This document shows positions 1 to 59,766 of a DNA stretch of 64,000 nucleotides, piece by piece. This stretch comes from Naegleria gruberi (taxonomy: Eukaryota). Location: assembly GCA_000004985.1 (NCBI GenBank), contig GG738931.1; one strand, written 5' to 3'. The position numbers were made by a program, and so were the translations under genes. Each line of letters begins with the position of its first letter. Within the stretch, counting starts at the first letter, position 1. Under the pieces are notes generated by a model. That model was not told where the DNA came from and ran no database searches. It saw only the letters and a list, made by a program, of their open reading frames with translations.

Positions 1-388
1 CCAAACCCAAACCCAAACCCAAACCCAAACCCAAACCCAAACCCAAACCCAAACCCAAACCCAAACCCAAACCCAAACCCAAACCCAAACCCAAACCCAA
101 ACCCAAACCCAAACCCAAACCCAAACCCAAACCCAAACCCAAACCCAAACCCAAACCCAAACCCAAACCCAAACCCAAACCCAAACCCAAACCCAAACCC
201 AAACCCAAACCCAAACCCAAACCCAAACCCAAACCCAAACCCAAACCCAAACCCAAACCCAAACCCAAACCCAAACCCAAACCCAAACCCAAACCCAAAC
301 CCAAACCCAAACCCAAACCCAAACCCAAACCCAAACCCAAACCCAAACCCAAACCCAAACCCAAACCCAAACCCAAACCCAAACCCAA
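1..388. repeat. Terminal tandem array of about 64 CCCAAA units (TTTGGG on the G-strand). This is a candidate telomere at the contig/chromosome end.
   Basis: Perfect hexamer periodicity from base 1 to ~388. The C-rich strand reads 5'->3' on the + strand, as expected at a left chromosome end. Confidence 0.8.
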
Positions 389-1108: not shown

Positions 1109-1564
1109 TTGAAAAAAATGACTCAAGTTAAAGGTTTGTGTGATGATCAAAGTTTGCTAATGATTGTAATAGAAATATTTTCTGATGATGTAATTTATGA
1201 AATTATTTCCTATTTATGTGATGATTGGAAATTCGTATTATTAAATTGCGTAATGGTAACAAAACAATGGTTGAACGTCATCCGAGATCGATCCGAGCTT
1301 TCAATGATGGCGAATAATCATTTGGTCAATCAAGTAAATAATGAATTTTTGGATTGTTTTGTATCAATAACATTTGCACGCAATATTTTAAATGACAATT
1401 GGTTTAACATGTTAGGACGTATGACTCAATTGACCACTTTGGAAATTGGAAATAATCTAATTGATGACAATATGGTTAAATTAATTAGTGAAATGAAACA
1501 GTTGACAGGCCTTGATTTGGAAATCAATCAAATCTTCAATGAAGGAGCCAAATCCATCAGTGAA
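1109..1564 (+). CDS. F-box-like/LRR protein of the RNI-like family B. It is a 3'-truncated fragment that stops at the gap and the interstitial telomere array.
   Basis: ATG at 1109. F-box-like motif IFSDDVIYEIISYL...VTKQWLNVI, then LRR units (LTTLEIGNNLIDDNMVKLISEMKQLTGLDL). It is a paralog of the 28351-29335 gene. The tracked ORF continues into N's and CCCAAA, which is an artifact. Confidence 0.6.
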
Positions 1565-1614
1565 NNNNNNNNNNNNNNNNNNNNNNNNNNNNNNNNNNNN
1601 NNNNNNNNNNNNNN
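1565..1614. other. Assembly gap (50 N).
   Basis: Run of n. Confidence 0.95.
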
Positions 1615-2525: not shown

Positions 2526-5162
2526 NNNNNNNNNNNNNNNNNNNNNNNNNNNNNNNNNNNNNNNNNNNNNNNNNNNNNNNNNNNNNNNNNNNNNNNNNNN
2601 NNNNNNNNNNNNNNNNNNNNNNNNNNNNNNNNNNNNNNNNNNNNNNNNNNNNNNNNNNNNNNNNNNNNNNNNNNNNNNNNNNNNNNNNNNNNNNNNNNNN
2701 NNNNNNNNNNNNNNNNNNNNNNNNNNNNNNNNNNNNNNNNNNNNNNNNNNNNNNNNNNNNNNNNNNNNNNNNNNNNNNNNNNNNNNNNNNNNNNNNNNNN
2801 NNNNNNNNNNNNNNNNNNNNNNNNNNNNNNNNNNNNNNNNNNNNNNNNNNNNNNNNNNNNNNNNNNNNNNNNNNNNNNNNNNNNNNNNNNNNNNNNNNNN
2901 NNNNNNNNNNNNNNNNNNNNNNNNNNNNNNNNNNNNNNNNNNNNNNNNNNNNNNNNNNNNNNNNNNNNNNNNNNNNNNNNNNNNNNNNNNNNNNNNNNNN
3001 NNNNNNNNNNNNNNNNNNNNNNNNNNNNNNNNNNNNNNNNNNNNNNNNNNNNNNNNNNNNNNNNNNNNNNNNNNNNNNNNNNNNNNNNNNNNNNNNNNNN
3101 NNNNNNNNNNNNNNNNNNNNNNNNNNNNNNNNNNNNNNNNNNNNNNNNNNNNNNNNNNNNNNNNNNNNNNNNNNNNNNNNNNNNNNNNNNNNNNNNNNNN
3201 NNNNNNNNNNNNNNNNNNNNNNNNNNNNNNNNNNNNNNNNNNNNNNNNNNNNNNNNNNNNNNNNNNNNNNNNNNNNNNNNNNNNNNNNNNNNNNNNNNNN
3301 NNNNNNNNNNNNNNNNNNNNNNNNNNNNNNNNNNNNNNNNNNNNNNNNNNNNNNNNNNNNNNNNNNNNNNNNNNNNNNNNNNNNNNNNNNNNNNNNNNNN
3401 NNNNNNNNNNNNNNNNNNNNNNNNNNNNNNNNNNNNNNNNNNNNNNNNNNNNNNNNNNNNNNNNNNNNNNNNNNNNNNNNNNNNNNNNNNNNNNNNNNNN
3501 NNNNNNNNNNNNNNNNNNNNNNNNNNNNNNNNNNNNNNNNNNNNNNNNNNNNNNNNNNNNNNNNNNNNNNNNNNNNNNNNNNNNNNNNNNNNNNNNNNNN
3601 NNNNNNNNNNNNNNNNNNNNNNNNNNNNNNNNNNNNNNNNNNNNNNNNNNNNNNNNNNNNNNNNNNNNNNNNNNNNNNNNNNNNNNNNNNNNNNNNNNNN
3701 NNNNNNNNNNNNNNNNNNNNNNNNNNNNNNNNNNNNNNNNNNNNNNNNNNNNNNNNNNNNNNNNNNNNNNNNNNNNNNNNNNNNNNNNNNNNNNNNNNNN
3801 NNNNNNNNNNNNNNNNNNNNNNNNNNNNNNNNNNNNNNNNNNNNNNNNNNNNNNNNNNNNNNNNNNNNNNNNNNNNNNNNNNNNNNNNNNNNNNNNNNNN
3901 NNNNNNNNNNNNNNNNNNNNNNNNNNNNNNNNNNNNNNNNNNNNNNNNNNNNNNNNNNNNNNNNNNNNNNNNNNNNNNNNNNNNNNNNNNNNNNNNNNNN
4001 NNNNNNNNNNNNNNNNNNNNNNNNNNNNNNNNNNNNNNNNNNNNNNNNNNNNNNNNNNNNNNNNNNNNNNNNNNNNNNNNNNNNNNNNNNNNNNNNNNNN
4101 NNNNNNNNNNNNNNNNNNNNNNNNNNNNNNNNNNNNNNNNNNNNNNNNNNNNNNNNNNNNNNNNNNNNNNNNNNNNNNNNNNNNNNNNNNNNNNNNNNNN
4201 NNNNNNNNNNNNNNNNNNNNNNNNNNNNNNNNNNNNNNNNNNNNNNNNNNNNNNNNNNNNNNNNNNNNNNNNNNNNNNNNNNNNNNNNNNNNNNNNNNNN
4301 NNNNNNNNNNNNNNNNNNNNNNNNNNNNNNNNNNNNNNNNNNNNNNNNNNNNNNNNNNNNNNNNNNNNNNNNNNNNNNNNNNNNNNNNNNNNNNNNNNNN
4401 NNNNNNNNNNNNNNNNNNNNNNNNNNNNNNNNNNNNNNNNNNNNNNNNNNNNNNNNNNNNNNNNNNNNNNNNNNNNNNNNNNNNNNNNNNNNNNNNNNNN
4501 NNNNNNNNNNNNNNNNNNNNNNNNNNNNNNNNNNNNNNNNNNNNNNNNNNNNNNNNNNNNNNNNNNNNNNNNNNNNNNNNNNNNNNNNNNNNNNNNNNNN
4601 NNNNNNNNNNNNNNNNNNNNNNNNNNNNNNNNNNNNNNNNNNNNNNNNNNNNNNNNNNNNNNNNNNNNNNNNNNNNNNNNNNNNNNNNNNNNNNNNNNNN
4701 NNNNNNNNNNNNNNNNNNNNNNNNNNNNNNNNNNNNNNNNNNNNNNNNNNNNNNNNNNNNNNNNNNNNNNNNNNNNNNNNNNNNNNNNNNNNNNNNNNNN
4801 NNNNNNNNNNNNNNNNNNNNNNNNNNNNNNNNNNNNNNNNNNNNNNNNNNNNNNNNNNNNNNNNNNNNNNNNNNNNNNNNNNNNNNNNNNNNNNNNNNNN
4901 NNNNNNNNNNNNNNNNNNNNNNNNNNNNNNNNNNNNNNNNNNNNNNNNNNNNNNNNNNNNNNNNNNNNNNNNNNNNNNNNNNNNNNNNNNNNNNNNNNNN
5001 NNNNNNNNNNNNNNNNNNNNNNNNNNNNNNNNNNNNNNNNNNNNNNNNNNNNNNNNNNNNNNNNNNNNNNNNNNNNNNNNNNNNNNNNNNNNNNNNNNNN
5101 NNNNNNNNNNNNNNNNNNNNNNNNNNNNNNNNNNNNNNNNNNNNNNNNNNNNNNNNNNNNNN
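2526..5162. other. Assembly gap (2637 N).
   Basis: Run of n. ORFs called across it are artifacts. Confidence 0.95.
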
Positions 5163-7606
5163 CACCCAATCCATATAATAATTGAACACAATATTTAACG
5201 TAGATAAAATCGATTTACTTTGAAAAGTAATTTTAAAAATTATACGCCAAAATAGAGCAGCTTTCTTGTAGTGTTGAATTTATTTGTCCGAAAACCCAAG
5301 AATCTAAACCTAAAAACCTATGCTAATTGAATATTCAATCTCATACCGGAAAAGATTCTTATTTGCGGAAAAAGATTCGAATCTTAGCGAATCTTCAATC
5401 AATTTCGAATGGAAACTGAATCTAAGAATCCAAGAATATCGAAATCTTTACCACTTTCCAAATAACAACGCAAACAACAAATACACCAAATCTCGATATC
5501 TAGATAGAAAGTATTTACTTTTTTTAAAACTTTACTGAAAAACCTTTCCAAAAGCCCAAGATTCACTTAAAGACTCTATATTAGATCATAAAGACCATGG
5601 TGCCACCGAAGTAACAAATCAAAACAACTCTAATCCATACCCAACCAACCTTTTATATTCATGATTTCAACTCTAACATGCCATCTGATAAACTATGGAC
5701 ACGGATGAATTTCTGGAAAATGACCACCCTATGAAACATTACCATCATGTTCCACATCTCAAATAATGTATATAATTCAGTTTTTAGACGTTTTGGTGAA
5801 CATTCCATCTTTCAGTAAGGTAAAGAGTGATTTATCAAGGTTGACTTAGGAAATCTTGAATATAGAAAACCATATCCTCAATCAACAAAATACATATCAA
5901 TCGATTGGAAATCATTAGTACATCTCGAAAATATCATTTATTTTATGTTTTGAAATCTCTCCTTTACCTCTTTTGGTCAATTAAGACAATTAAGGATGAG
6001 AATATAGGAAAAATTACCAATCTCAAAATAATTGATAATATCGAGTTCTACATCTCAAATAAAGTGGACTTTCATCAAATTATATGTTTTCATTTCAAGA
6101 AATGCATTCAGTAGATAGTACATGGTGATATTTCAAGAGAATGGAAATCTGAAGGATACAGAAACAACTCCATTTTCACTGAAATTGATATCATGGTATG
6201 CAGACACTCCAATTAGTATGTGGTATCAATTTCATGAATATTGGTTCAGTAGATGTCGAGATGTCAACTCTATCAATTTACTATAGATATTTGACATGAT
6301 ATCATAGATTATACTCCAACTCACTCATTTTACATATAACAAGTCTAGAATTGATACCACATAGTCTATATATCAATTAAATACATCTACAATAGTTTAG
6401 AAACATTTCAAACTACTTTCATAAAACTANNNNNNNNNNNNNNNNNNNNNNNNNNNNNNNNNNNNNNNNNNNNNNNNNNAGTTGAACACCATCGATAGCA
6501 AATCATCTCTAGTATGACATATATTTTTTATTGATCAATTTCTGATCATTCTTTTACCTTTCCCTAGGAATAGTAAAATCGCAATATATTGAGTGAGGAA
6601 TTGCTGATTATCTCAATAATTAGATAAGAAACCATACACAATCTATAGCCCACTGGATAGCTGAGATTGTAACCTATTTAATGATGTATATCATTGATTA
6701 TGTATTTCAATAATAATGAAGATCCAATGAGTACGAAACGATAACCAACCTCTCAGGTCTTTACGATACAAGAGACGTTAATAAATATTACAATTTACAT
6801 GTTACTTATTCATATTGCATGCAAATCAACCTGATTCAATCTACAAAGGTTGGTAGTTGCACCACTTCGTGGCGAAACTACCCATCCACGATGAATCAAC
6901 ATTAGATTCACTTCCATTCAACTCAATTTGACCGTTATAATCAATAAATCAATGAAATGTTTCTTTATTAGCAAACCCTATTCAATCTAATGAGTAGATT
7001 CACGTCCCAAACATTTGACTTCTAAAAGTCCATAATTCAAAAGTTAGTACTGACCTGACCTTTAAATATCTATCAATACAAGAAATGAAACCATCAAATT
7101 TACATCATTAATAGATGATAAGAAATATAATCAATGATATAAATCTTCACTAAGTAATCTCTTAAATAACCCAAATAAATCAACTCTGAATACTAAGTAC
7201 ATTATTTGGAAGAGCCACATAGATTTTGGATACTATCTGAACTGAAATGAGGTAGAAAGAGTACAATCTTCAACACCAAACAATTTATGTCTTATTAATA
7301 TTGTTCCAAGTGCGATAATTAGGACACAACATGAAATTTTACAAAATACCAATTATAATTTCGAATTAGTTGGTGAAATACGTAAAAATAATGCTAATGT
7401 TGCATATATTTGCTTCGGATTCTGAATTATTGATTTTAAAATCCGGGGAAATAAAGAAGGCCGAAAGCAAAATATCTAATATTGAAATAGAGGAACCATT
7501 CGATGGAACTACCACTTTACTATCAAAATGTTATGAAAATTAAGAGTATCATTCAGTTGATGCTTCTTCATCATATAATTTTCAATTTCCATTCATCATT
7601 CAGAAT

Positions 7607-19656: not shown

Positions 19657-19737
19657 TGCAGAAGGTGGGATTTGAACCCACGAAGCTTGCGCAGTAGAAC
19701 TTGAGTCTACCCCCTTTGACCACTCGGGAACCCCTGC
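19657..19737 (-). tRNA. tRNA-Leu (anticodon CAA), 81 nt, no intron.
   Basis: Minus-strand read GCAGGGGTTCCCGAGTGGTCAAAGGGGGTAGACTCAAGTTCTACTGCGCAAGCTTCGTGGGTTCAAATCCCACCTTCTGCA. It has a 7-bp acceptor stem, D-arm, anticodon stem GTAGA/TCTAC with loop CTCAAGT, a long variable arm and a T-arm GGTTCAAATCC. It closely matches eukaryotic tRNA-Leu. Confidence 0.85.
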
Positions 19738-42017: not shown

Positions 42018-45000
42018 TTATTCCAATCTTTGGTCCTTTCTATAATATACAGAAGAGTCTTCTTCGACAACCATTGAACTTGGAGTTGCAGTTTGTTGGG
42101 TTGGTTTTCTCTTATTCTTACAAACGAACCAAACAAGAATAATACCAATGACAAGGACACCAACCAATGCAAGAGCTGTAGCACCTGCCAAAACACCTGT
42201 AGAAATGGAGAGTCCACGAAGAGCCTCTTCAGTATTGTTGGTGACGTACGAAAAGCTTGGAATGATTGGTCTTGGGTTGACTGGCATTGGAGTGAAGGAA
42301 TCATTGTTAGGATTGGGATTTTCTGGATTGATCAATTTTGGAAGAGGGAGAGTGTTCAATTCAATTTGTGAACCATCGACACCAAATGTCTTAACATTTG
42401 CAAAGTTGTCCAAATCTCTGATTGCTGTGGTGGTTGCCTTAATAGTGAAAACGCACTCAGTGACAGGAACTGTTTGAGCAAAGGTAACTTGGATAATACC
42501 ATCTGTGGTATTCTTTTCCATTGTGGAAAATTGAAGGTAATCTCCAGTGCCCAAATCGAGAATGTTAAAGTTTGGATCGACAAGACCTCTTGCAATAGTT
42601 TCTTCAAGCTTGAAAGTATCTGGCATATCCACAATCATTTTACCTCCTTGTGGAACTTCAAAGTTGAATACCATTGATGATCTCAAAGTTATTGATTGTC
42701 CAGAGGTGGCAGTAACAATACGAGGAGACAATGTACTCACAGTCATGGAAACCTTTGTTGAGAGAACATTTTCAATGGAAGAGAAAATGTGCAAATTGTA
42801 AGAAACACCAGCCTTCAAACCTGTAATTGAAATTGTAGTGTCCTTAGTGTTGAGAACAGTTGAATCGTACATTACATGGAAATCGTAATCCATTTGGTTT
42901 GGCTTTTCCCAATGCAATTGGATGGTATCTGGTGTGACACGAGTGATTTGAATATTGCTTGGTGGCAAAACATCAGAAACATTAACAGATCGAGGAACAT
43001 TCACAGTTGATTGAACACTAGCAGTTGTATCGTAAGAAGTCTTAAAGATACATGCTGAAGGAGATAATTGCTCCCAGAAACCATTTGCAATAGAGGAAAT
43101 GAATGAGAATGATTGACTTTGTCCTGACATGATTCCAAAATTCATGATTTGGATAGAGAGCATTAATGAAGAGTCAGCATTGGATGGGTTTGTGATTGGA
43201 TCAATTTCAAGCTTTTCAACATTGTTTTCAGAGTCACCGAAATCTGTCTTTCCATTAGCAATAAAAATTGACAATCCTGATGTGGCTCCTGTTGAGAGAC
43301 TTTGAACATAAGTATTGGCATAAATATCCAAGTCATGAACAAGACCACCTTGAACAGATGTACTTCCTGGATAATCGTACCAAGTGACTGTGGTTCTGAA
43401 AACGGATTTGGCAGTAACAGTCTTCTTTAATCTCAAACAGAGTCTAGCAGTTTGAGCTTGGGATGTGAATGTATTGTCAGCGAAAACCAAAGTGACTGGA
43501 TTGTTATACTTGTCATTTAAGAGGCCACCTAATTGAACCTTACCAAAACCGTCATAAAAGTTTGGAGATCCATATTTTTGTTTGATATTGAATCTTGAAG
43601 TTTCGTCATTGGAATAAGCAACAGTTCCAGTAAGTGGTGAAGCAGAATTAATGATAGCAGCCTTCAAAAGAGTACCACTTGGATTACTAATGGACAAGGT
43701 CTTTTGGAAGAATTGACGAACAAGAGCCACTGCACCAGCTGTTGTGATTAAGAAATAAATAAATTAATAACAATATAATATAAATAATATAAATAATGTA
43801 AAGAAATAAATAAAAAACAATATAAATAATTAGTAATTAATGTTAAAACAAATACTGACCTGTGATTGGTGTTGCCATTGAAGTACCACTAAGTAAATAA
43901 AGAGCAGCATTATTATTGAGTTGAGGTGATTGAGTTCCACAATTCTTTGATGTTGTTGTACCATCAGAGTGCGTAGAAATAACTGTTTGACCAACACCGA
44001 CAACATCAGGCTTGATTCTTCCTCCCATGGCTGGTCCTCTACTAGAGAAACTGGCTAAATTGTTTTCATTATAATTGTTTGGTTGACTTGAATAACCAGT
44101 TTTAATAGCTGATGGGCAACAGTATGCACGCACTTCATCTTTGTTGTATCCACTGTAGGCACAGCATTCTGCAGTTGATGTCCAAGGCAAACCAGCTTGT
44201 TGCATCTTGTGTAAGAAATCGTCGTAATTGACACCATCAACATAACCAGCATTTGAAGTTTGATGAGCACCAACAGTCAATGTGTTCTTAGAGACAGCTG
44301 GGTAACCTGTATTACCAAATTCAGAGATTGCTCCAGAGTTACCTTGAGAGAACAAGATGATGGCTTCCTTATTATTCCATAAGAATGTGTCAGTATCTTG
44401 ACATTGAGTATTGTAAACATTACAAGCTTCGCAGCATGTTGGAACACCAAAAATGAGCTTACAATCTTCATTAGTGACAACTTGTCCTTCGTCGTATCCT
44501 TGAATTGAAACTCTCAATTTACAAGATTGGCAATTGTAAGCACAATCAACCAATGATTCTGGGCCACACCCAAAACTGTTCGAGAAAATTCTAGCCCCCA
44601 TACTGTATGGAACAGAGAATAAGTTAGAGATTGGATCAGGAATCATGAGGGATCCTGGTTGTGATGTCTTTTCCAAATCAGTAAAGAATATCTTGGCTCC
44701 AGGAGCAACACCATGATATTGGTTCAAGCCAGTATTAAGATCAGCATTTTCGATGGAACCAGCAACACTACCACAAACGTGGGTACCATGGCCATCAACT
44801 CCATCATAATTATCAGCATAAGTTGTCTTGTAATAGACAACCTTTCTTCTGAGACTGTTCATAGTATCAAATGTCATTGGTCTTGAACTATCAGAGAAGA
44901 AACAGTTATCAAAATCGAGGCCAGTATCAGCAATAGCAACAACTTGATTGGTACCAGTAATACCTAAAGCATACATTGGTGAATCTGGAGAGGTAGCTGA

Positions 45001-46134
45001 TGGGTCAATGTTTTGCATCAACTTTTGAGCATATCTGTTTTGAAGAGTGAGGAAGAGCTTTCTTTCGATAAAGTGAACATTTTGATTTTCCATCAACAAA
45101 TCACCAACACGAGAGGCAATGAGAGGAGAGAAGCTCAATCCACACTTGGTTTGATCGAGGACTTTCATTGGTTTGTATTGAATACCAGAGACATAACTTT
45201 CAGCAAGAATCTTGTTGAATTGATTGGCAAAGTTTTCAGCTTCCTCCATTTCAGTACCTGCTCTGATTGCTTCAAGAGATGGAACGAGGGAAATGATCAC
45301 CTCCACCATATTTGGATCCAAACCAAAAGGTGTAGATTTTGAACTAAGTTTTTGGGTTGCATTGAAAACATTTCTTCTAGCATTATCAACTTTTGGAGGA
45401 TTTCTCTTCATTTCTGAAGCCTTTTGTTGAATCTTTTTAAAGTTAAGTGTTGACTTGAATCTATTTTCATATTCTCCAATCCATTCAATGGAATTATCTT
45501 GTCCAATATGTTCCAAGAGGTCACTGGCCTTGGCAACAATAGAGACAACTCCTGGTGCCAAAATATTGTTAAATTTGACAGCGTCCTTGGTGAAGGCAGG
45601 TTCTTCATTCTTTTCTAAACTTGTTTCCAACATGTTCATGATTGAAACCTTGGAAATACTCTTGCTCTTCAATTTGACAATGAATTGACGTTTTGGTTCC
45701 TCAATAATTTCCTCTCCTGTTGGTAATTGACGTTTTACAGCATTGGTCAATGCCAACAATTTGGCTCTGCTCAAAGCAAGATTATTTTCACTCGTCAATG
45801 AATATCCAAAAGACATTTCATTTTGACTGATGGTATTCTCTTCGTTCATGAAGGATTTAAATTTGATAGTTGGTCCATTTGGATACTTTTTCATCTTGAG
45901 CTTGAGAAATTCCTCAACATCTTGTGCAGGAGGAATATTGCTCTCCTTCCCAATATATTTTGATGAAAGTAATGATGGAATGAATGAATAAGAAACAACA
46001 CCAACAGTGGCAATAGCAATCACTAAGGCAACAACAATCATATAACTAACATATGATTGTCTTTGTTTTTTCAATTCCGCAACCGCAGCATCATCTTGTT
46101 GATGAATATTATTATTCTGTTCTTCGAGCATCAT
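42018..46134 (-). CDS. Membrane-anchored subtilisin-like serine protease (S8) with a C-terminal FN3-like region and TM. 2 exons, about 1330 aa.
   Basis: Exon 1 is 46134-43860: N-terminal hydrophobic MIVVALVIAIATVGVVSYSF and catalytic motifs AIADTGLDFDNCFF, HGTHVCGSVAG, LSGTSMATPIT|GTCAGT. The intron is 43859-43739. Exon 2 is 43738-42018 (AGAVALVRQFF...) ending with TM VLAGATALALVGVLVIGIILVWFVCKNKRK. Confidence 0.7.
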
Positions 46135-46663
46135 CAAAAGCCAAAATATTACAATAACGATAGTGTGCTTATTCTTTGCTGCACTGTTTTCAAATTAAAC
46201 TCGAGTATTAAGGCACAATTCAAATTTCTATCCAATCCTTCCGCGCCAACAAAATCAAAGTAAAAAGAAAACGGGAACAAGAGAGAGCTGCTTAAAGGCT
46301 TTTTTTCGTTGTGGTGGTGTGGATGAAATTAAGGCTCGAGAATGATCTTTCTGCTGTTGCGCGTTGGAAAATTGACCCGCCCAAAAACTATCACAATCTA
46401 ATCGCTCCCGTATTATCGAAACATTAAATAAAATGGATTTATCTTTACGGATCAGTAAATCATCATCATGGTGATTCCGATATAAATATTTAGAAAATAT
46501 TAATATTAAATATTGAATTATTTTTGATGAGAATATTGAATAAAGTAAAGGATTCAATTCTAAAATTAACGCCAGTATGAACTTGCAAGTTGAAATTGAA
46601 ATTATTTTTTCTTTTAATCAACAAAAAAATCATCCACACATCTTGTACAATATTATTTTCATC

Positions 46664-50985: not shown

Positions 50986-52110
50986 TTACATTACAGAACA
51001 TTTTTTCGATTGTTTCATCAACTTTCTCTGCTTTTTACAAGTTTCAATGAATGCAGAATCGTGTTGAATGACTTCCTTCAGGAGTTTCAGATTATCACCT
51101 GATCCATATCTCTTTAGTCTTACACATTCTTCATATACTCGAATAATGTTTTCTCCCGTCTTGGCACTTGTTTCAATGATGAAAGTATTGGTCAATTGAG
51201 ATTGTTTAATGATGGTAGCAATTTGGTTAGTAAATTTCTCAATGGTGATTGGTCGATCTGTTTCATTCAATAAATCGACCTTATTTAAGGCAAATACTAC
51301 TGGAAAGCTATTTTCCTCAAAGTCCTTAACTCTTACTAATTGTTCTACAAGTGGTTCGGCTTCTTCCACTGAATTACTATCTACCAAATCACAAACAAGA
51401 ACGAAACACTCTCCATATCTCATAAAATGATCTCTCGCGGACTTGATAAATTTAATTAGTTTAGAATGGCATTATTCTAAAGAACTTACACTGTATTCAT
51501 GTTCAGCAGAGTCCAAAACTTCAAATAATGTAGGAAAACCATCAACCAACAATTGTTTTCTATAAACATCCTCTATTGTTGGATCATATTGTTCAATAAA
51601 GAAATCTTGTATATATTTCACTGTCATTGCAGACTTTCCTATTTCAAAATAATTAACCTATTAACAGAAAATTATTAAATTCTTACCTACTCCTCCCTTT
51701 CCAATCATCACCACTTTAGTTTTCTCAATTCCATCCAATTTTTTAGGTGTTCCCCAAATGTGAAACTTAATAAATGCAGCCATCAGCACTTTCCTCTTCA
51801 ATTCTCTCTTTAGAATCATTTCCTCCTTCAGTAAACTAAACTCCTTCTCCAAAGATGGATTAATTCCAAACCAAATCTCCCAAACCTTCCACCAAAATCT
51901 ATCAAAATATCGTTCCATCTCTGGCATACTAGCAATCTTCCTATTCAATGATTGAAAATTAGCCATATATCGTACATAGGATCGTATTTCACTGCTCCCA
52001 CTCGAAAAATTCTTTTTCAGCAATTCGGAATCTCCCACTCCGAACGATAAAATGTGTTGATAAATTTCATAGGGAAGTGATGAGAATTGTGTGATGTGTT
52101 TTGGAGCCAT
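50986..52110 (-). CDS. Ras-like small GTPase with a CAAX tail and an N-terminal extension. At least 3 exons.
   Basis: Exon A is ...EKTKVVMIGKGGVG|GTAAGA, ending at 51687. Exon B is 51638-51490 (KSAMTVKYIQDFFIEQYDPTIEDVYRKQLLVDGFPTLFEVLDSAEHEYS|GTAAGT). Exon C is 51441-50986 (SARDHFMRYGECF...FALNKVDL...ETSAK...KKCSVM*). The start is ambiguous: ATG at 52110 gives a 140-aa extension, ATG at 51783 gives a canonical length. Confidence 0.6.
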
Positions 52111-52271
52111 TTTTTTCTGATGTTCAAAACCAAGTTCACTGTTGTTTTGCCGATTACAACAATTACAACGGAACGACTCTTCTCCTGGTGGGAAAGGAGC
52201 CAAACATAATATTGGCTTGCAGAGATGAATCATCGAAATATTACTCAACCACATGCCAATCCGAAGCATCA

Positions 52272-53738
52272 TTATTTTCTATTGATAATTGAAAGATCTG
52301 TAAATGGATGTGGTGACTTGACAATATAATTAAACTTGTTAGGAAATAATGTAAATTGGTTCCTTCTATAATTGACTTTAACAATGGTACCAACAGCAAT
52401 AGTTGCACGTCCATCCCTAATTATAATTCTTCCAAGTTTGTTGCAATCATTGTAGCTATCCACAAATAATGGAACAGTAGGTGCCAATTCAACAAGTGCT
52501 ACATCTCCTATTTCAAGACAGGATGGATTTTCCTCAATTATTATTGAGCTATCTGTAGGATTCAATATCCCAATCAATTTCTCAAATTTAGTATTGGCAA
52601 AAGCTAGCCCACAATGTACTATTGGAGCATAACCAGCCCTTATTGAGGGTTTAGGAGTATTAATTATTGAAATTTGTGCTATAAACCTGGATGCTGCCTT
52701 ACATGGTGAAAAATATGGATCGCTTATTATGTAACCAGTTTTAGTTGGTGGCAGATTATCGAATTCAATACCAACCAGAGAGTTGGAAAATGCTCTCTCC
52801 TTGTTGGTATGTGAAATTTGAATATTCTTCACTCTCACATTAATCAATTCTCCACTATGCACTCGTGGAATTTGAACTGTCATTCCAACCTTAACCATTC
52901 CACTAATAATATATCCAGCAAGAATGCCATTCGGCAACTTGGGTTTAAAAATTGCAATTCTCAATGGCTCTCGCAAACATTCCTCAACAGTCCTTTGAAA
53001 GTTGGTTTCCATATTATTCAACGTTTCAGTGAGTGTTTTTCCACAATACCATTTCATATTTTCTGACCTCTCAAAAACATTATCTCCACACTCTCCACAA
53101 ATTGGAATGAATGGAATTTCTTGCTTGATTCCAACTGTCTTGATTAATTTACCAATACTTGTTTTAATTTCCAAAAATCTCTTCTCTGAATATTTCACAC
53201 AATCCATCTTATTGACACACACTATGAACCTCTCAATTCCAGCAACTTTTGAATAAATTAGTTGCTGCTTATAAGAAAATGATAGATTCTCTCGGTGGAA
53301 TCCAGCTTCAAACTCTCCATCAGATGCACTAACCACCATCAAACAAACATTTCCCATCGAAATCCCTTGAATTGTCTTCTTTATAAAATCACCATGTCCA
53401 GGTGTGTCAATAATCCGAAATTGACAAGCAGACAATTCAATTACATGTTTAGCATTCACATCAGTACTTATTTCTCTCTCTGCCTGAGTTGGAGAATCCA
53501 GCATGAGTGAAGAGATATGAAAATGATTTCTATTTCCCATCCATGATTGAATTCCAAATCGTTGAAAAATCGCTTGTTGTCCTTGCTGATAAAGCTCACA
53601 TTGACGCTTTAATTGTTCATAAACTTGTGGTTTAATTTTTCTTACCAATTGACCACCAAGTGTTGATTTTCCGCAGTCTACAAATCCAATCAAGACTAGA
53701 TTAAATTCTTCGGGTTTGATTTTTCTATGATCAGACAT
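52272..53738 (-). CDS. Divergent EF1A/EFL-like translational GTPase (488 aa).
   Basis: ATG at 53738. G1 NLVLIGFVDCGKST, G3 DTPGHGDF, G4 NKMD, then beta-barrel domains II and III (LPNGILAGYIISGMVKVGMTV...). There is no N-terminal extension, so it is EF1A-like rather than eRF3/HBS1-like. Confidence 0.65.
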   Translation of the reverse strand: MSDHRKIKPEEFNLVLIGFVDCGKSTLGGQLVRKIKPQVYEQLKRQCELYQQGQQAIFQRFGIQSWMGNRNHFHISSLMLDSPTQAEREISTDVNAKHVIELSACQFRIIDTPGHGDFIKKTIQGISMGNVCLMVVSASDGEFEAGFHRENLSFSYKQQLIYSKVAGIERFIVCVNKMDCVKYSEKRFLEIKTSIGKLIKTVGIKQEIPFIPICGECGDNVFERSENMKWYCGKTLTETLNNMETNFQRTVEECLREPLRIAIFKPKLPNGILAGYIISGMVKVGMTVQIPRVHSGELINVRVKNIQISHTNKERAFSNSLVGIEFDNLPPTKTGYIISDPYFSPCKAASRFIAQISIINTPKPSIRAGYAPIVHCGLAFANTKFEKLIGILNPTDSSIIIEENPSCLEIGDVALVELAPTVPLFVDSYNDCNKLGRIIIRDGRATIAVGTIVKVNYRRNQFTLFPNKFNYIVKSPHPFTDLSIINRK

Positions 53739-57234: not shown

Positions 57235-59766
57235 TTATAATTCGAACTGTGATGATTGAGAAGGAAGATTTCCCTGTTGTTTTCTATTCAATACAAACAT
57301 TACAATAGACACAATCAATGCAATCATACACAAACACATTAGAAGGAAGAAAGTTGGAACTAGAATTGCAATTAAAATGACTGATAAATCTCCAGTACTG
57401 ACCGTTGAAGAAGCTGAACGATTTGTGAGAGCTGATCTCTGGACAGCAACAGAGGAAATGTAGGAAGTAGAACAGATTATTTGATTAGAGGTGGAAAAGG
57501 ATGAGGTAACTAATTGATTCGTCCAACTATTCGAATCATAATCAAATCTCAAACAAGTATAATTATAATTGGAAACATCAAAAATCAAACCACTGAAATA
57601 ATACTTGATTTGCTTAGATAACTGAATATGAATCAACTCTGATTTGGCATTCTGAATCATGAAATTAGTAACATTCGAATAAAATTGCTCATTCGACCGA
57701 GTTGAAGAAGTGCTGAAATAAAAACTATTGGACGATAAATTCAATCCAAAAGTAGAACCATCCTCAACGTAAATCAATTGCTTTTCATTTGCCAAACTCA
57801 GAACCAAATATTCCCAAGTATTTGATGACATCTTTACAAAGGTTTCAGTTTCAGAGCCAGTGGAACATGTCAATTCGTTGCTGTCACTGTCTAAATCCAT
57901 CAAACATTCAATAATGGAACAATCGAGATATTTCCAATGAGTATTGCATGAACAAGTGTTATTGGAAATGCAAGTTCCATGATTACTGCAATTACTCAAT
58001 GCATCACATGAAATTGTTGAACATTGAGAATTACCTTTCCAACCAGAATTACATTCGCATGAATTATTCGAAACACAACTTCCATGACCTGAACATTCGT
58101 TTAAGGCATCACATGAAATTTGAGAACATTGAGAGTTTCCTCTCCATCCTGAATGACAGCTACAAGTATTATTCGAAACGCAATCACCATGATGAGAACA
58201 ATTATTAAGAATTTCACATGTGAAAAGTGAACATTGAGAATTTCCCTTCCAACCAACTTGACATTCACACGTATTATTCGAAACACAATTTCCATTACCA
58301 TAACAATCATTCAAAGCATCACAGCTAATCACAGAACATTGAGCATTTCCTTTGAATCCACTTTCACATGAACATGAATTATTCGAAACACATTGACCAT
58401 GACCTGAACAATTGTTTAAAGTTTCACAAGTAAAGTTTGAGCATTCAGAATTACCAAGCCAACCATTGTTGCATTCGCATGTATTATTCGAAACACAATG
58501 TCCATTTCCATTACATTCGTTTAAAACTTCACAAGAAAAGGAAGAACAAGAAGAATCTGATTTCCAACCTGATTCGCATGAACAGGTATTATTTGAAATG
58601 CATGAACCGTGACCTGAACAGTGATTCAAAGAATCGCAACTAATAGCTGAACAATGAGAATTACCTTTCCAGCCAGAATTACATTCGCATGAATTATTCG
58701 AAACACATTGTCCATGATTATTGCAATGATTTAAAGCTTCACAACTAAATAAGGAACAATTAGAATCTCCTTTCCATCCTGAATAACACATACAAGTATT
58801 ATTCGAAACGCATGAGCCATGACCATTACAATTATCAACTAGCTCACAAGACGGAGTTTTACAATTTTCACCATGCCAATAATCATCACATTGACATGTA
58901 TTATTCGAAACACATTGTCCATGTCCAGAACAATAATTCACGCCATCACATGAAAATTGAGAACAGTTGACATTTCCTTTCCATCCAGATTGACAGGAAC
59001 AAGTATTTGCTGATATACAACTTCCATGATCTAAACTGCAATTATCTCTGGAAATGCAATTAAAAAATTGACACTTGTTTCCATGATAACCATCAGAACA
59101 GACACAATTATTTGGAGATGGACATGAGCCATGACCAGAACAAACTAAACTAGAGGTGGACAATACATTATAACATAATGGAGTGGTGCAGTTTAGTCCT
59201 TCCCATAAATAGGTATTCGAAAGTCCAGCTGTCCAAGTGTGGGTTTCCCAACAAACTTCCTCTTGAGCTCCGTAGAGAACTAAATTACCATCATTTTGTA
59301 AAACTAATCTAAAAGGAGCTGTTCCAGAACCACAACTACTTGCTAATCCTAACAGATTAGTACTCCCACCATTTCCTTTTATGGACAAGGAACCATCTGT
59401 GGCCAAAGCCAAGACATATGGTCCACTTCCACCTGTAGCAGTATAGGATTTCTTCTCCTCAGCTGTAATAGAATTCATAAGAGACAAGACACCACTCGAT
59501 TTCATGGCCAAAGTAAAGGTTCCATCTGTGGACACGAGAGATTCTCCCTGAACTAAAGTTTGTCTTCTGTCAGCTGTCCAAGCAGAGTAGATGGAGTTTT
59601 GATAGACACTATCGACACAATAGCAAGTACCATAGTTACAGACTCCATGACTACCACACGAATCTTGTTCAGTTGCGAGAATGCCATTACAAGTGGACAC
59701 AGCCAAAGTTGTGCTTGCCAATGAAAGCAAGTTGACCAGAAGAAGAAGAGAAATTAAAAGCTTCAT
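57235..59766 (-). CDS. Type I membrane protein: signal peptide, bulb-type (B) lectin domain, about 13 EGF-like repeats, TM.
   Basis: MKLLISLLLLVNLLSLASTTLA. Lectin motif LQNDGNLVLY. Repeats CSGHGxCxSNNTCxCxSGWKGNSxC. C-terminal TM ILIAILVPTFFLLMCLCMIALIVSIVMFVL. Confidence 0.7.
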   Translation of the reverse strand: MKLLISLLLLVNLLSLASTTLAVSTCNGILATEQDSCGSHGVCNYGTCYCVDSVYQNSIYSAWTADRRQTLVQGESLVSTDGTFTLAMKSSGVLSLMNSITAEEKKSYTATGGSGPYVLALATDGSLSIKGNGGSTNLLGLASSCGSGTAPFRLVLQNDGNLVLYGAQEEVCWETHTWTAGLSNTYLWEGLNCTTPLCYNVLSTSSLVCSGHGSCPSPNNCVCSDGYHGNKCQFFNCISRDNCSLDHGSCISANTCSCQSGWKGNVNCSQFSCDGVNYCSGHGQCVSNNTCQCDDYWHGENCKTPSCELVDNCNGHGSCVSNNTCMCYSGWKGDSNCSLFSCEALNHCNNHGQCVSNNSCECNSGWKGNSHCSAISCDSLNHCSGHGSCISNNTCSCESGWKSDSSCSSFSCEVLNECNGNGHCVSNNTCECNNGWLGNSECSNFTCETLNNCSGHGQCVSNNSCSCESGFKGNAQCSVISCDALNDCYGNGNCVSNNTCECQVGWKGNSQCSLFTCEILNNCSHHGDCVSNNTCSCHSGWRGNSQCSQISCDALNECSGHGSCVSNNSCECNSGWKGNSQCSTISCDALSNCSNHGTCISNNTCSCNTHWKYLDCSIIECLMDLDSDSNELTCSTGSETETFVKMSSNTWEYLVLSLANEKQLIYVEDGSTFGLNLSSNSFYFSTSSTRSNEQFYSNVTNFMIQNAKSELIHIQLSKQIKYYFSGLIFDVSNYNYTCLRFDYDSNSWTNQLVTSSFSTSNQIICSTSYISSVAVQRSALTNRSASSTVSTGDLSVILIAILVPTFFLLMCLCMIALIVSIVMFVLNRKQQGNLPSQSSQFEL

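What the first reader, a model, noticed from the sequence alone, without database searches (positions are those of the whole stretch)
50986..53738. Back-to-back atypical GTPases: Ras-like with DSAEHE switch II, and EF1A-like with GFVDCGKST
The Ras-like gene has a perfect P-loop (GKGGVGKS), NKVD, ETSAK and a CAAX tail (CSVM). Its switch II reads DSAEHE instead of DTAGQE: the Gly60 and Gln61 equivalents are replaced. In Ras, changes at these positions abolish intrinsic and GAP-stimulated hydrolysis, so this may be a constitutively GTP-bound Ras. It may also carry a 140-aa N-terminal extension, depending on which ATG is used. Only 160 bp upstream on the same strand is a divergent EF1A-like GTPase whose conserved G1 histidine is Phe (GFVDCGKST). 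Both look like fast-evolving, lineage-specific GTPase paralogs.
Basis: partly seen in the sequence, partly recalled or inferred. Interest (0 to 1): 0.55.

Follow-up and report, generated by a model that had tools for sequence, protein, structure and literature searches.

The report
Two divergent Naegleria GTPase paralogues
Two neighbouring genes of the amoeba Naegleria gruberi encode a Ras-type switch protein that has lost the two residues needed to turn itself off, and a very divergent copy of translation factor eEF1A; both are real, but they are ordinary products of this genome's large, fast-evolving GTPase families.

Summary
The window is a subtelomeric piece of a Naegleria gruberi scaffold, and both genes lie on the minus strand.

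**Ras-like gene (50986-52110):** it has three exons and two 48-nt GT..AG introns, and encodes 342 aa. The motifs GKGGVGKS, YDPTIEDVY, DSAEHE, NKVD, ETSAK and a polybasic tail ending in CSVM are all present.
- The N-terminal extension is real. It is a 128-aa helical domain with an F-box-like LPxEIxxHILxF motif.
- This domain defines a Ras subfamily found only in N. gruberi and in unnamed environmental contigs.
- The NCBI model (XP_002669149.1, 281 aa) is truncated at the N-terminus.
- Subfamily members range from canonical DTAGQEE through DTAGPEE and DPAGIED to DSAEHE.
- DSAEHE arose from DTAGPEE by GGA>GAA, CCT>CAT and a 3-nt deletion. A second gene on the same scaffold shares it.
- My prediction is a farnesylated, nucleotide-binding Ras that cannot hydrolyse GTP and has a broken switch, comparable to RGK proteins (DxWE). 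That is a narrower claim than "constitutively active".

**EF1A-like gene (52272-53738, 488 aa):** it is a lone, long-branch eEF1A paralogue.
- The GTPase core is kept (GxxxxGKS, DxPGH, NKMD).
- Only 53% of otherwise conserved EF1A residues remain, and domain II is degenerate.

The adjacency of the two genes looks coincidental. Both genes fall in families already catalogued as expanded in this species (Herman 2021; Atkinson 2015). Interest is modest.

The parts
50986..52110 (-). Ras-like gene (NCBI XP_002669149.1, here with a corrected start). CDS 52110..51687, 51638..51490, 51441..50986 (stop included); 342 aa.
   Evidence: Splicing and translation. 100% match to P0001. Start supported by paralogues and by the homology limit of L001.
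51727..52110 (-). Conserved N-terminal domain (residues 1-128), all-helical. It defines an N. gruberi-type Ras subfamily.
   Evidence: 59% identical to paralogue P0002. A profile search of 1.84e9 proteins gave 13 hits; those with a source name are all N. gruberi, apart from one plant F-box protein. AF2 model pLDDT 75.5, 8 helices.
52039..52086 (-). F-box-like motif FSSLPYEIYQHILSFG (residues 9-24).
   Evidence: hhalign against an F-box alignment: 86.9% probability, E=4e-6, but only 21 columns. Sub-threshold Pfam F-box hits in paralogues. The profile hits the F-box repeats of plant protein P0139.
51631..51702 (-). P-loop GKGGVGKS, interrupted by intron 1 (51639-51686).
51639..51686 (-). Intron 1, 48 nt, GTAAGA...AATAG.
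   Evidence: The homologous intron in L001 is 44/48 identical.
51442..51489 (-). Intron 2, 48 nt, GTAAGT...TCAAG, directly after the switch II codons.
   Evidence: The homologous intron in L001 is 42 nt. Alternative acceptor sites break the frame or delete SAR (read directly from the sequence).
51496..51513 (-). Switch II / G3 codons GAC TCT GCT GAA CAT GAA = DSAEHE, in place of DTAGQE.
   Evidence: Derivation from GAT ACT GCT GGA CCT GAA GAA in L001.
50989..51000 (-). CAAX box CSVM, preceded by the polybasic stretch KKQRKLMKQSKK.
   Evidence: CSVM/CSIM/CSLM/CNVM is conserved in the subfamily.
52111..52271 (.). 161-nt intergenic spacer between the EF1A-like stop and the Ras ATG. It is open in the Ras frame but is not coding.
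52272..53738 (-). EF1A-like gene (XP_002669150.1, NAEGRDRAFT_75919), single exon, 488 aa, three EF1A domains.
53661..53687 (-). G1 motif GFVDCGKST (His>Phe).
53385..53408 (-). G3 motif DTPGHGDF. The histidine of the conserved DxPGH motif is kept.
53202..53213 (-). G4 motif NKMD.
52899..52916 (-). Domain II segment GYIISG, replacing the conserved GRVETG. It is part of a degenerate domain II.

Best explanation
The interval holds two unrelated, lineage-specific GTPase paralogues of Naegleria gruberi that happen to be neighbours, about 51 kb from a telomere.

(1) The Ras-like gene belongs to a subfamily found only in N. gruberi and in unnamed environmental contigs. The subfamily has a fixed architecture:
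- a 128-aa helical N-terminal domain that begins with an F-box-like LPxEIxxHILxF motif;
- a Ras-type G domain;
- a short helical C-extension;
- a polybasic farnesylation tail (CSVM).

Shown: all elements for guanine-nucleotide and Mg binding are intact (GxxxxGKS, F28, T35, D57, NKxD, SAK). The effector loop is identical to Ras except for one residue. Switch II has mutated from the DTAGPEE of its closest paralogues to DSAEHE with one residue lost. A sister gene on the same scaffold carries the same block.

Inferred: the protein is membrane-anchored and binds GTP. It cannot hydrolyse GTP, because it has no Gln61 and no Gly60 amide geometry. It probably also cannot perform the normal GTP-dependent switch II movement. 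That would make it a 'broken switch' or pseudoGTPase of the nucleotide-binding type, functionally comparable to RGK (DxWE), Rnd and RhoH proteins. Its activity would then be set by synthesis, localisation and turnover rather than by a GAP. The turnover route may run through the F-box-like domain, which is speculative.

(2) The EF1A-like gene is a singleton, long-branch derivative of eukaryotic eEF1A.

Shown: it keeps the three-domain layout and the GTPase core (P-loop Lys/Ser, DxPGH with the histidine, NKMD). It has replaced 47% of residues that other EF1As conserve, including the G1 His, the switch I GIT, the TREH motif and the GRVETG / PGDNVGFN segments of domain II.

Inferred: it is still a GTPase under selection for an open frame, but it no longer works as the canonical aminoacyl-tRNA carrier and has a specialised or regulatory role.
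For: Identity and organism:
- 100% matches to N. gruberi XP_002669149.1 and XP_002669150.1 on a 138,333-bp scaffold.

Gene model:
-.

Ras family membership:
- Pfam Ras scores 97.8 bits against a cut-off of 21.6. PDB Rap2A 1e-31 and KRas 3.5e-31.

Subfamily and the N-terminal domain:
- The profile search found 13 hits in 1.84e9 representatives. Every one with a source name is N. gruberi, apart from one plant F-box protein; several are unnamed ENA, Logan or SRC contigs.

Switch II series and polarity:
- The motif table and NJ tree place (window, XP_002669123) as sister to the DTAGPEE genes.
- The codon-level derivation needs 2 substitutions plus one codon deletion. Deleting the Gly codon instead would need 6 substitutions.

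A real gene rather than decay or error:
- The ORF and splice sites are intact and the deletion is in frame.
- The same block is present in a second gene.
- dN/dS against L001 is 0.56 overall and 0.35 in exon 1.
- Switch I shows 0/9 changes while switch II shows 9/20 (Fisher p=1.3e-4).
- Herman et al. list the gene as Ras without a pseudogene flag.

F-box-like motif:
-.

EF1A-like gene:
- Three Pfam domains. aEF1A/eEF1A score 187-201 bits against 118-154 for HBS1 and eRF3.
- TIGR00483 scores 242 bits against a cut-off of 540.
- The nearest non-self protein is 34-35% identical.
- 80 of 150 conserved positions are kept, against 69-98% for controls.
- It nests inside eukaryotic eEF1A on the longest branch.
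- Atkinson 2015 reports several highly divergent eEF1A copies in N. gruberi: 12 eEF1A plus 1 'aEF1A'.

Adjacency not conserved:
- L001 has a CrcB-like gene upstream.
Against: - There are no biochemical or expression data for either gene. Nucleotide state, hydrolysis and prenylation are all inferred from motifs.
- A dN/dS of 0.56 is only mildly constrained, and the region shows a mosaic, gene-conversion-like pattern. Partial relaxation or incipient pseudogenisation cannot be excluded.
- The sister copy also carries D38G in the effector loop.
- For the EF1A-like gene, no orthologue was found with which to test selection. EFL was not included in any comparison.
Confidence: 0.6

Rival explanations
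1. The Ras-like gene is a young redundant duplicate drifting towards pseudogenisation. On this view DSAEHE is neutral decay of a dispensable copy, not a functional state.
For: - N. gruberi has 80 Ras-family genes. Birth-and-death evolution with disrupted copies is described for its F-box-bearing Rab-like clades.
- The locus is subtelomeric.
- dN/dS is 0.56 overall and 0.64 in exon 2.
- Switch II is a substitution hot spot.
- The sister copy has D38G.
- A more distant member, XP_002673059, shows further decay: GSERVGKS, DTIESD, SVK.
Against: - The 342-codon frame is open (chance about 1e-9).
- Both splice sites are canonical and the deletion is in frame.
- G1, T35, D57, NKVD, SAK, the effector loop and CAAX are all intact.
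- Two genes keep the same block.
- dN/dS is below 1 in all three exons.
- The curated catalogue does not flag it as a pseudogene.
Confidence: 0.2
2. The Ras-like protein still cycles as a regulated switch by using non-canonical catalysis. Either a GAP supplies the catalytic residue, as RapGAP does for Rap (which has Thr61), or His61 positions the water.
For: - Rap2A is the best PDB match and naturally lacks Gln61 (DTAGTEQ).
- The clade's closest members already lacked Gln61 (Pro or Ile) while keeping everything else. That suggests the clade works without Gln61.
- Switch I is perfectly conserved.
Against: - Gly60 is also gone and switch II is one residue shorter. The known DxxE family (RGK) does not behave as a canonical switch.
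- No partner GAP has been identified.
Confidence: 0.15
3. The two GTPase genes form a functional pair, either co-regulated or acting together, which would explain their tandem same-strand arrangement 161 bp apart.
For: They are on the same strand with a short spacer.
Against: - The closest paralogous locus (L001) shares homology only across the Ras CDS and has a CrcB-like gene upstream on the opposite strand.
- The EF1A-like gene has no close relative anywhere, while the Ras subfamily has many members.
- The families are unrelated, and other neighbours in the window are also packed closely.
Confidence: 0.03
4. DSAEHE or GFVDCGKST is an artefact of assembly, sequencing or a wrong gene model.
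For: - The window contains assembly gaps.
- The NCBI Ras model is wrong at its 5' end.
Against: - DSAEHE lies inside exon 2, away from the gaps, and is present in a second gene, XP_002669123.
- The JGI/NCBI splice model gives the same peptide, and alternative splice sites break the frame.
- GFVDCGKST lies in an uninterrupted ORF identical to XP_002669150.1.
- A candidate GTAAGA...AG intron inside the EF1A-like insertion is either out of frame (116 nt) or would delete conserved switch I sequence (162 nt).
Confidence: 0.02

Closest known systems
Classical Ras/Rap small GTPases (H/K-Ras, Rap2A)
   Same: - The G-domain fold family is the same: Pfam Ras 6.6e-28, Rap2A 1e-31.
- P-loop, F28, T35, D57, NKxD and SAK are present, and the effector loop YDPTIEDVY differs from Ras by one residue.
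- The tail is polybasic plus CAAX, like K-Ras4B.
   Different: - Switch II is DSAEHE, with no Gly60 and no Gln61, and is one residue shorter.
- There is a 128-aa N-terminal domain.
- There are a longer G4-G5 insert and a C-terminal helical extension.
RGK GTPases (Rad, Gem/Kir, Rem, Rem2)
   Same: - They are Ras-superfamily proteins whose G3 motif is DXWE rather than DXXG, so Glu sits at the Gly60 position.
- They carry N- and C-terminal extensions.
[quoted passage not shown]
   Different: - There is no Trp at position 59 here.
- RGK proteins lack a CAAX box and have a divergent switch I, whereas this protein has a canonical switch I and CAAX.
- No RGK chain is among the 60 best PDB matches listed.
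- The resemblance is convergent, not membership.
Constitutively GTP-bound atypical GTPases / pseudoGTPases (Rnd1-3, RhoH, kappaB-Ras; Stiegler & Boggon 2020, from my own knowledge and the reference list seen)
   Same: They bind nucleotide but lack catalytic residues, and are regulated by expression, localisation and degradation rather than by GAPs.
   Different: - Those proteins keep the DxxG glycine and are changed at positions 12, 59 or 61.
- Here Gly60 itself is replaced.
- The biochemical state of the Naegleria protein is untested.
Naegleria F-box-GTPase fusions (Herman et al. 2021) and trypanosome TbFRP (FYVE-F-box-GTPase)
   Same: - An N-terminal F-box(-like) element sits upstream of a Ras-superfamily G domain.
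- Some carry a C-terminal CaaX.
- The expansions are lineage-specific.
   Different: [quoted passage not shown] In their table this gene and the relatives I looked up are listed as plain 'Ras' with no extra domain.
- The TbFRP G domain is Rab18-like, and no Naegleria orthologue was found.
- Here only the first roughly 20 residues match an F-box.
eEF1A / aEF1A, and the divergent eEF1A copies noted in protists (Atkinson 2015; Kamikawa 2013 title and abstract only)
   Same: - The three-domain EF1A architecture and the motifs GxxxxGKST, DxPGH and NKMD are present.
- The best matches are a/eEF1A.
- N. gruberi is already reported to have many highly divergent eEF1A copies.
- Acytostelium divergent paralogues also lack the G1 His.
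   Different: - It scores 242 bits against a TIGR00483 cut-off of 540.
- It keeps only 53% of conserved EF1A positions.
- It has a roughly 20-aa insertion before switch I, a degenerate domain II and a 30-aa C-terminal tail.
- It has no N-terminal extension of the HBS1/eRF3 type.

Membership tests
Ras family small GTPases (Pfam PF00071) | Profile match above the curated threshold | tested here: met
   97.8 bits against a cut-off of 21.6, residues 186-353 of the 396-aa ORF. Rap2A and KRas score 1e-31.
Ras family small GTPases (Pfam PF00071) | G1 GxxxxGK[ST], G2 Thr35, G4 NKxD, G5 SAK | tested here: met
   GKGGVGKS, YDPTIEDVY, NKVD, ETSAK.
Ras family small GTPases (Pfam PF00071) | G3 DxxG with Gly60, and catalytic Gln61 | tested here: not met
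   DSAEHE. The codon comparison with L001 gives G60E, P61H and loss of one Glu.
Ras family small GTPases (Pfam PF00071) | C-terminal CAAX prenylation box | tested here: met
   CSVM follows a polybasic stretch and is conserved in the subfamily. Prenylation itself was not tested.
RGK GTPases | G3 DXWE, non-canonical switch I, no CAAX, calmodulin/14-3-3-binding extensions | tested here: not met
   Only the Glu at position 60 is shared. There is no Trp59, switch I is canonical and a CAAX box is present (motif definition). No RGK chain is among the 60 best PDB matches listed.
F-box proteins (SCF substrate receptors) | A full three-helix F-box of about 45 aa recognised by Pfam F-box or F-box-like above threshold | tested here: not met
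   The window protein has no hit at E<=10. Paralogues reach E=0.02-0.14, below the cut-offs.
F-box proteins (SCF substrate receptors) | LPxE(I/L)xxxIL helix-1 signature | tested here: met
   SLPYEIYQHILSF. hhalign gives 86.9% probability and E=4e-6 over 21 columns. The family profile hits the F-box repeats of P0139.
F-box proteins (SCF substrate receptors) | F-box fold | tested here: inconclusive
F-box proteins (SCF substrate receptors) | Skp1 binding | not testable with these tools
   No tool here tests a protein-protein interaction. It needs a pull-down or a co-fold with N. gruberi Skp1.
eEF1A/aEF1A (TIGR00483 equivalog) | Score above the equivalog cut-off | tested here: not met
   241.7 bits against 540.1. 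PRK12317 scores 249 against 502.
eEF1A/aEF1A (TIGR00483 equivalog) | Three domains (GTP_EFTU, D2, D3/eEF1A_C) and G1, G3, G4 motifs | tested here: met
   Pfam hits are, with D2 only at E=1.5e-4 and below threshold. GFVDCGKST, DTPGH and NKMD are present.
eEF1A/aEF1A (TIGR00483 equivalog) | Conservation of family-invariant residues (G1 His, switch I RGITI, TREH, domain II GRVETG / PGDNVGFN) | tested here: not met
   All of these are replaced, and 80 of 150 conserved positions are kept against 69-98% in controls. Their role in aminoacyl-tRNA binding comes from my own knowledge and was not tested.
HBS1 / eRF3 / Ski7 | Closest similarity to these subfamilies, and an N-terminal extension | tested here: not met
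   HBS1L 154 bits, eRF3a 152, yeast Hbs1 118, against a/eEF1A at 187-201. The G domain starts at residue 11.
EFL (elongation factor-like) | Groups with EFL in a phylogeny | not tested
The NJ tree contained only EF1A-type sequences.

The most novel reading that the evidence does not exclude
The N-domain-Ras-CAAX subfamily could be a set of membrane-anchored SCF-type adaptors. The F-box-like N-terminus would recruit Skp1, and the Ras G domain would act as the nucleotide-gated recognition module. That would be GTPase-dependent ubiquitination at the membrane. On this reading, the DSAEHE genes are natural 'locked' versions that have escaped GAP control. The evidence here does not exclude this, but it shows only an F-box helix-1 motif.
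Probability: 0.12. Interest if true: 0.6.

Novelty: new member of a known kind. Interest (0 to 1): 0.3.

Why it matters
If the prediction holds, this is a naturally occurring Ras with a G60E/residue-61-His switch II that still has its effector loop, nucleotide-binding motifs and lipid anchor.

Its paralogues form a graded series: DTAGQEE, then DTAGPEE and DPAGIED, then DSAEHE. Together they offer a small natural experiment on how a Ras switch is dismantled step by step. They also add a non-animal parallel to the RGK DxWE proteins.

The work corrects the public gene model. It also shows that a Ras subfamily in Naegleria carries a conserved N-terminal domain with an F-box-like start. [quoted passage not shown]

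The EF1A-like gene is one more example of extreme divergence among the many eEF1A copies of N. gruberi. None of this overturns current understanding.

Tried and rejected
- **Genomic context of paralogues.** Look-ups for P0002, P0145 and P0007 found nothing on record. I therefore could not compute dN/dS between the two DSAEHE genes or inspect the second locus.
- **Close relatives of the EF1A-like protein.** A scan of JGI metagenome contigs gave only a 25%-identity hit.
- **Pfam scan of the N-terminal domain.** The window protein gave no hit, even at E<=10.
- **The first 53 codons of the 396-aa ORF.** I considered them as possible coding sequence and rejected them. There is no homology beyond 52116 in L001, and all paralogues start at the MAPK position.
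- **A possible intron in the EF1A-like gene.** I considered a GTAAGA...AG element inside the roughly 20-aa insertion and rejected it. The 116-nt version shifts the frame, and the 162-nt version would delete the conserved region before switch I (read).
- **Deletion of the Gly60 codon itself.** MAFFT's protein alignment suggests this. I rejected it on DNA parsimony: 6 substitutions against 2.
- **Archaeal origin of the EF1A-like gene.** Archaeal aEF1A chains top the PDB list, and Atkinson's table lists one 'aEF1A' in N. gruberi. I rejected this reading because the protein nests within eukaryotic eEF1A in 195 of 200 NJ bootstraps and is never sister to the archaeal sequences.
- **Literature.** A search for the accession numbers found no paper.


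Full report
**What is there**

The window is a piece of a Naegleria gruberi scaffold. The spliced Ras-like product and the 488-aa ORF are 100% identical to XP_002669149.1 ('ras family small GTPase') and XP_002669150.1 ('predicted protein', NAEGRDRAFT_75919). Both lie on a 138,333-bp contig.

The window begins with 384 nt of (CCAAAC)n telomere repeat, so the locus sits about 51 kb from a chromosome end. Both genes are on the minus strand.

**The Ras-like gene: model**

Exons run 52110-51687, 51638-51490 and 51441-50986. They are separated by two introns of exactly 48 nt (GTAAGA..AATAG and GTAAGT..TCAAG), and splicing keeps the frame.
- GKGGVGKS, split by intron 1
- YDPTIEDVY
- DSAEHE (51496-51513)
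- NKVD
- ETSAK
- a polybasic stretch followed by CSVM

The mechanical ORF extends to 52272 (396 aa), but its first 53 codons are not coding. The paralogous contig L001 is 92.6% identical from 52116 to 50978 and unrelated beyond that. Every paralogue also starts at the equivalent MAPK.../MQN... position.

The public 281-aa model starts too late. The 59%-identical paralogue P0002 and the 343-aa sister gene XP_002669123 show that the preceding roughly 60 residues are conserved coding sequence. The protein is 342 aa, with a 128-aa N-terminal domain.

**The Ras-like gene: family**

The G domain is unambiguously Ras/Rap-type: Pfam Ras E=6.6e-28, Rap2A 1e-31, KRas 3.5e-31.

I searched a profile of the N-terminal domain against 1.84 billion representative proteins and found only 13 hits:
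- N. gruberi proteins annotated 'ras family small GTPase';
- short, unnamed environmental contigs;
- at E=7e-4, one plant protein with four F-box repeats. It was matched inside those repeats.

The members share one architecture:
- an N-terminal domain with LPxEIxxHILxF ... FWWKV ... KRKxLL;
- a Ras G domain with a lengthened G4-G5 segment;
- a C-extension (DNLxLLKxxIxxD..I);
- a tail of the CSVM, CSIM, CSLM or CNVM type.

Herman et al. 2021 re-annotated all Ras-superfamily genes of N. gruberi, 80 of them in the Ras family. They list this gene and the relatives I looked up simply as 'Ras', with no pseudogene flag and no extra domain. [quoted passage not shown]

**Is the N-terminal domain an F-box?**

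Only partly shown.
- Pfam F-box models stay below threshold. The window protein has no hit, and paralogues reach E=0.02-0.14.
- hhalign against a small F-box alignment gives 86.9% probability and E=4e-6, but only over the 21 columns of helix 1.
- An AlphaFold model (pLDDT 75.5, eight helices) has no Foldseek match in the PDB.

I call it F-box-like. Whether it is a member of the F-box family is undecided.

**Switch II**

Across the subfamily the G3/switch II sequences form a series:

| Sequence | Found in |
|---|---|
| DTAGQEE | XP_002674622 |
| DTYGQEE | XP_002673837 |
| DTAGPEE | XP_002677816, XP_002673033, L001, and a gene Herman et al. assembled from unplaced reads |
| DPAGIED | XP_002671236 |
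| DSAEHE, one residue shorter | the window gene and XP_002669123 |
| DTIESD, also one residue shorter | XP_002673059 |

In an NJ tree of the G domains, the two DSAEHE genes are sister to the DTAGPEE pair.

At the DNA level, L001 reads GAT ACT GCT GGA CCT GAA GAA. The window reads GAC TCT GCT GAA CAT GAA. That is G60E by GGA>GAA, P61H by CCT>CAT, T58S, and loss of one GAA. Deleting the glycine codon instead, as a protein aligner suggests, would need six substitutions rather than two.

However, Gln61 had already been lost (to Pro or Ile) in this gene's closest relatives. What is recent is the loss of Gly60 and the shortening.

**Function or decay?**

Against the L001 gene, dN/dS is 0.56 overall: exon 1 gives 0.35, exon 2 gives 0.64 with a raised dS of 0.25, and exon 3 gives 0.59.

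Amino-acid differences are strongly clustered:

| Region | Differences |
|---|---|
| Switch II | 9 of 20 |
| Switch I | 0 of 9 |
| Remainder of the G domain and C-extension | about 10% |

The switch II excess against the rest gives Fisher p=1.3e-4.

The sister gene follows the window sequence through a central block (residues 146-264). At both flanks it follows the DTAGPEE type. This mosaic pattern is typical of gene conversion among tandem paralogues.

The following points argue for a gene that is still used:
- an open 342-codon frame, with a chance probability of about 1e-9;
- canonical splice sites;
- an in-frame deletion;
- two genes retaining the block;
- untouched nucleotide-binding, effector-loop and CAAX elements.

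The relaxed dN/dS and the subtelomeric, birth-and-death setting keep the decay alternative alive. I give it about 0.2.

**Mechanism proposed for the Ras-like protein**

Shown: all residues that bind guanine, phosphate and Mg are present. The two residues that Ras needs for hydrolysis and for the gamma-phosphate-coupled movement of switch II are not.

From established knowledge (my own recollection, not tested here):
- Q61H and other residue-61 changes abolish intrinsic and GAP-stimulated hydrolysis.
- G60A blocks the conformational switch and behaves as a dominant negative rather than as an activator.

From the literature read here: RGK proteins carry DXWE at G3 and are considered to deviate from the canonical switch (PMC4081519).

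Inference: this is a farnesylated, membrane-bound, nucleotide-binding but hydrolysis-dead Ras with a broken or frozen switch II. It would be controlled by abundance, location or turnover rather than by GAPs. This only partly agrees with 'constitutively GTP-bound Ras'.

A rival reading (about 0.15) is that the protein cycles with a Rap-like GAP that supplies the catalytic residue. The best PDB hit is Rap2A, and the clade had already dispensed with Gln61.

**The EF1A-like gene**

It is a single 488-codon ORF (53738-52272) with all three EF1A domains. The scores are:
- Best matches are archaeal and eukaryotic EF1A, at 187-201 bits. HBS1L scores 154, eRF3a 152, yeast Hbs1 118 and CysN 80.
- It is far below the curated EF-1-alpha equivalog threshold, at 242 bits against 540.
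- Its nearest non-self protein among 5.8 billion is only 34-35% identical.
- A metagenome scan found nothing closer than 25%.

Motifs kept: GxxxxGKST, the switch I Asp with Ser in place of Thr, DTPGH with the histidine, and NKMD.

Motifs changed:

| Conserved in EF1A | In this protein |
|---|---|
| G1 His | Phe |
| ERGITI | EREIST |
| GHRDF | GHGDF |
| NMITGTSQAD | KTIQGISMGN |
| TREH | YKQQ |
| SGW | CGE |
| GIGTVPVGRVETG (domain II) | PNGILAGYIISG |
| PGDNVGFN (domain II) | SNSLVGIE |

It also has a roughly 20-aa insertion before switch I and a 30-aa C-terminal tail.

It keeps 80 of 150 positions that at least 11 of 13 comparators conserve. The comparators themselves keep 69-98%, and they include archaeal factors and two divergent Acytostelium paralogues that have also lost the G1 His.

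In an NJ tree it lies inside eukaryotic eEF1A on by far the longest branch. It groups with other long-branch paralogues, which is probably attraction, and it is never sister to the archaeal sequences in 200 bootstraps.

Atkinson 2015 already notes 'several versions of eEF1A and eEF2' in N. gruberi that are 'often highly divergent', and tabulates 12 eEF1A plus one 'aEF1A' for this species.

An open frame of 488 codons at this level of divergence (chance about 1e-13) implies continued selection for a protein. The intact GTPase core together with the degenerate domain II suggests a GTPase that no longer carries aminoacyl-tRNA in the canonical way. That last step is inference.

**Are the two genes linked?**

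Nothing supports it. The paralogous Ras locus L001 has a CrcB-like gene upstream on the other strand. The other neighbours in the window are also unrelated: a subtilase, fn3, EGF-repeat and LRR proteins.

**Verdict**

Both genes are new members of known kinds. One is an atypical, pseudoGTPase-like Ras. The other is a divergent eEF1A paralogue. Both sit in a genome already documented to have extreme, dynamic expansions of these families.

The useful additions from this work are:
- the corrected gene model;
- recognition of an N-domain(F-box-like)-Ras-CAAX subfamily;
- the stepwise, codon-resolved history of the switch II loss.

Interest is 0.3.

Noticed in passing
window 1-384: A perfect (CCAAAC)n telomere repeat. 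The window starts at a chromosome end, so the two GTPase genes are subtelomeric, about 51 kb in.
   Followed up: partly
window 1565-1614, 2526-5162, 6430-6479: Runs of N (assembly gaps). They explain the very low GC bins at 2-6 kb and the spurious roughly 900-aa 'ORFs' listed there.
   Followed up: yes
window 51687-52110 (NCBI model XP_002669149.1): The public 281-aa gene model starts at an internal Met and omits about 60 conserved N-terminal residues, including the F-box-like motif. The sister gene XP_002669123 is modelled at 343 aa.
   Followed up: yes
L001 1915-3036 (ENA metagenome contig ERZ929261): An environmental contig carries a 92.6%-identical paralogue with DTAGPEE. It is almost identical to a gene that Herman et al. 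could recover only from unassembled N. gruberi reads. Its upstream neighbour is a 502-aa CrcB-like (fluoride-channel family) gene.
   Followed up: partly
P0145 = XP_002669123 (same scaffold, outside the window): The second DSAEHE gene also has Asp38>Gly in the otherwise invariant effector loop (YDPTIEGVY). It is a mosaic, window-like in residues 146-264 and DTAGPEE-type at the flanks, which suggests gene conversion.
   Followed up: partly
XP_002673059 (P0137; sequence from Herman et al. Table S8): A more distant subfamily member independently shows Glu at the Gly60 position and a switch II one residue shorter (DTIESD). Its P-loop (GSERVGKS) and G5 (SVK) are also degenerate. This is a possible parallel route of switch loss.
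   Followed up: no
P0039, P0055 (Acytostelium subglobosum; alignment A2): Two divergent EF1A paralogues of a dictyostelid have also lost the G1 histidine (GDVDAGKST, GEVNAGKST). The position therefore seems to be given up repeatedly in non-canonical EF1A copies.
   Followed up: no
window 19657-19737 (-): tRNA-Leu(CAA), the only tRNA gene in the window.
   Followed up: no
window 1109-1564 (+): An ORF running into an assembly gap contains leucine-rich-repeat-like sequence (LTTLEIGNNLIDDNMVKLISEMKQLTGLDLEINQI). It had no Pfam hit at E<=0.001.
   Followed up: no
window 57235-59766 (-), 43843-46137 (-), 42018-43730 (-): The neighbouring genes encode an EGF/teneurin-like repeat protein, a subtilase and an fn3-domain protein. 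These are secreted or surface-type proteins, in keeping with a variable subtelomeric region.
   Followed up: no
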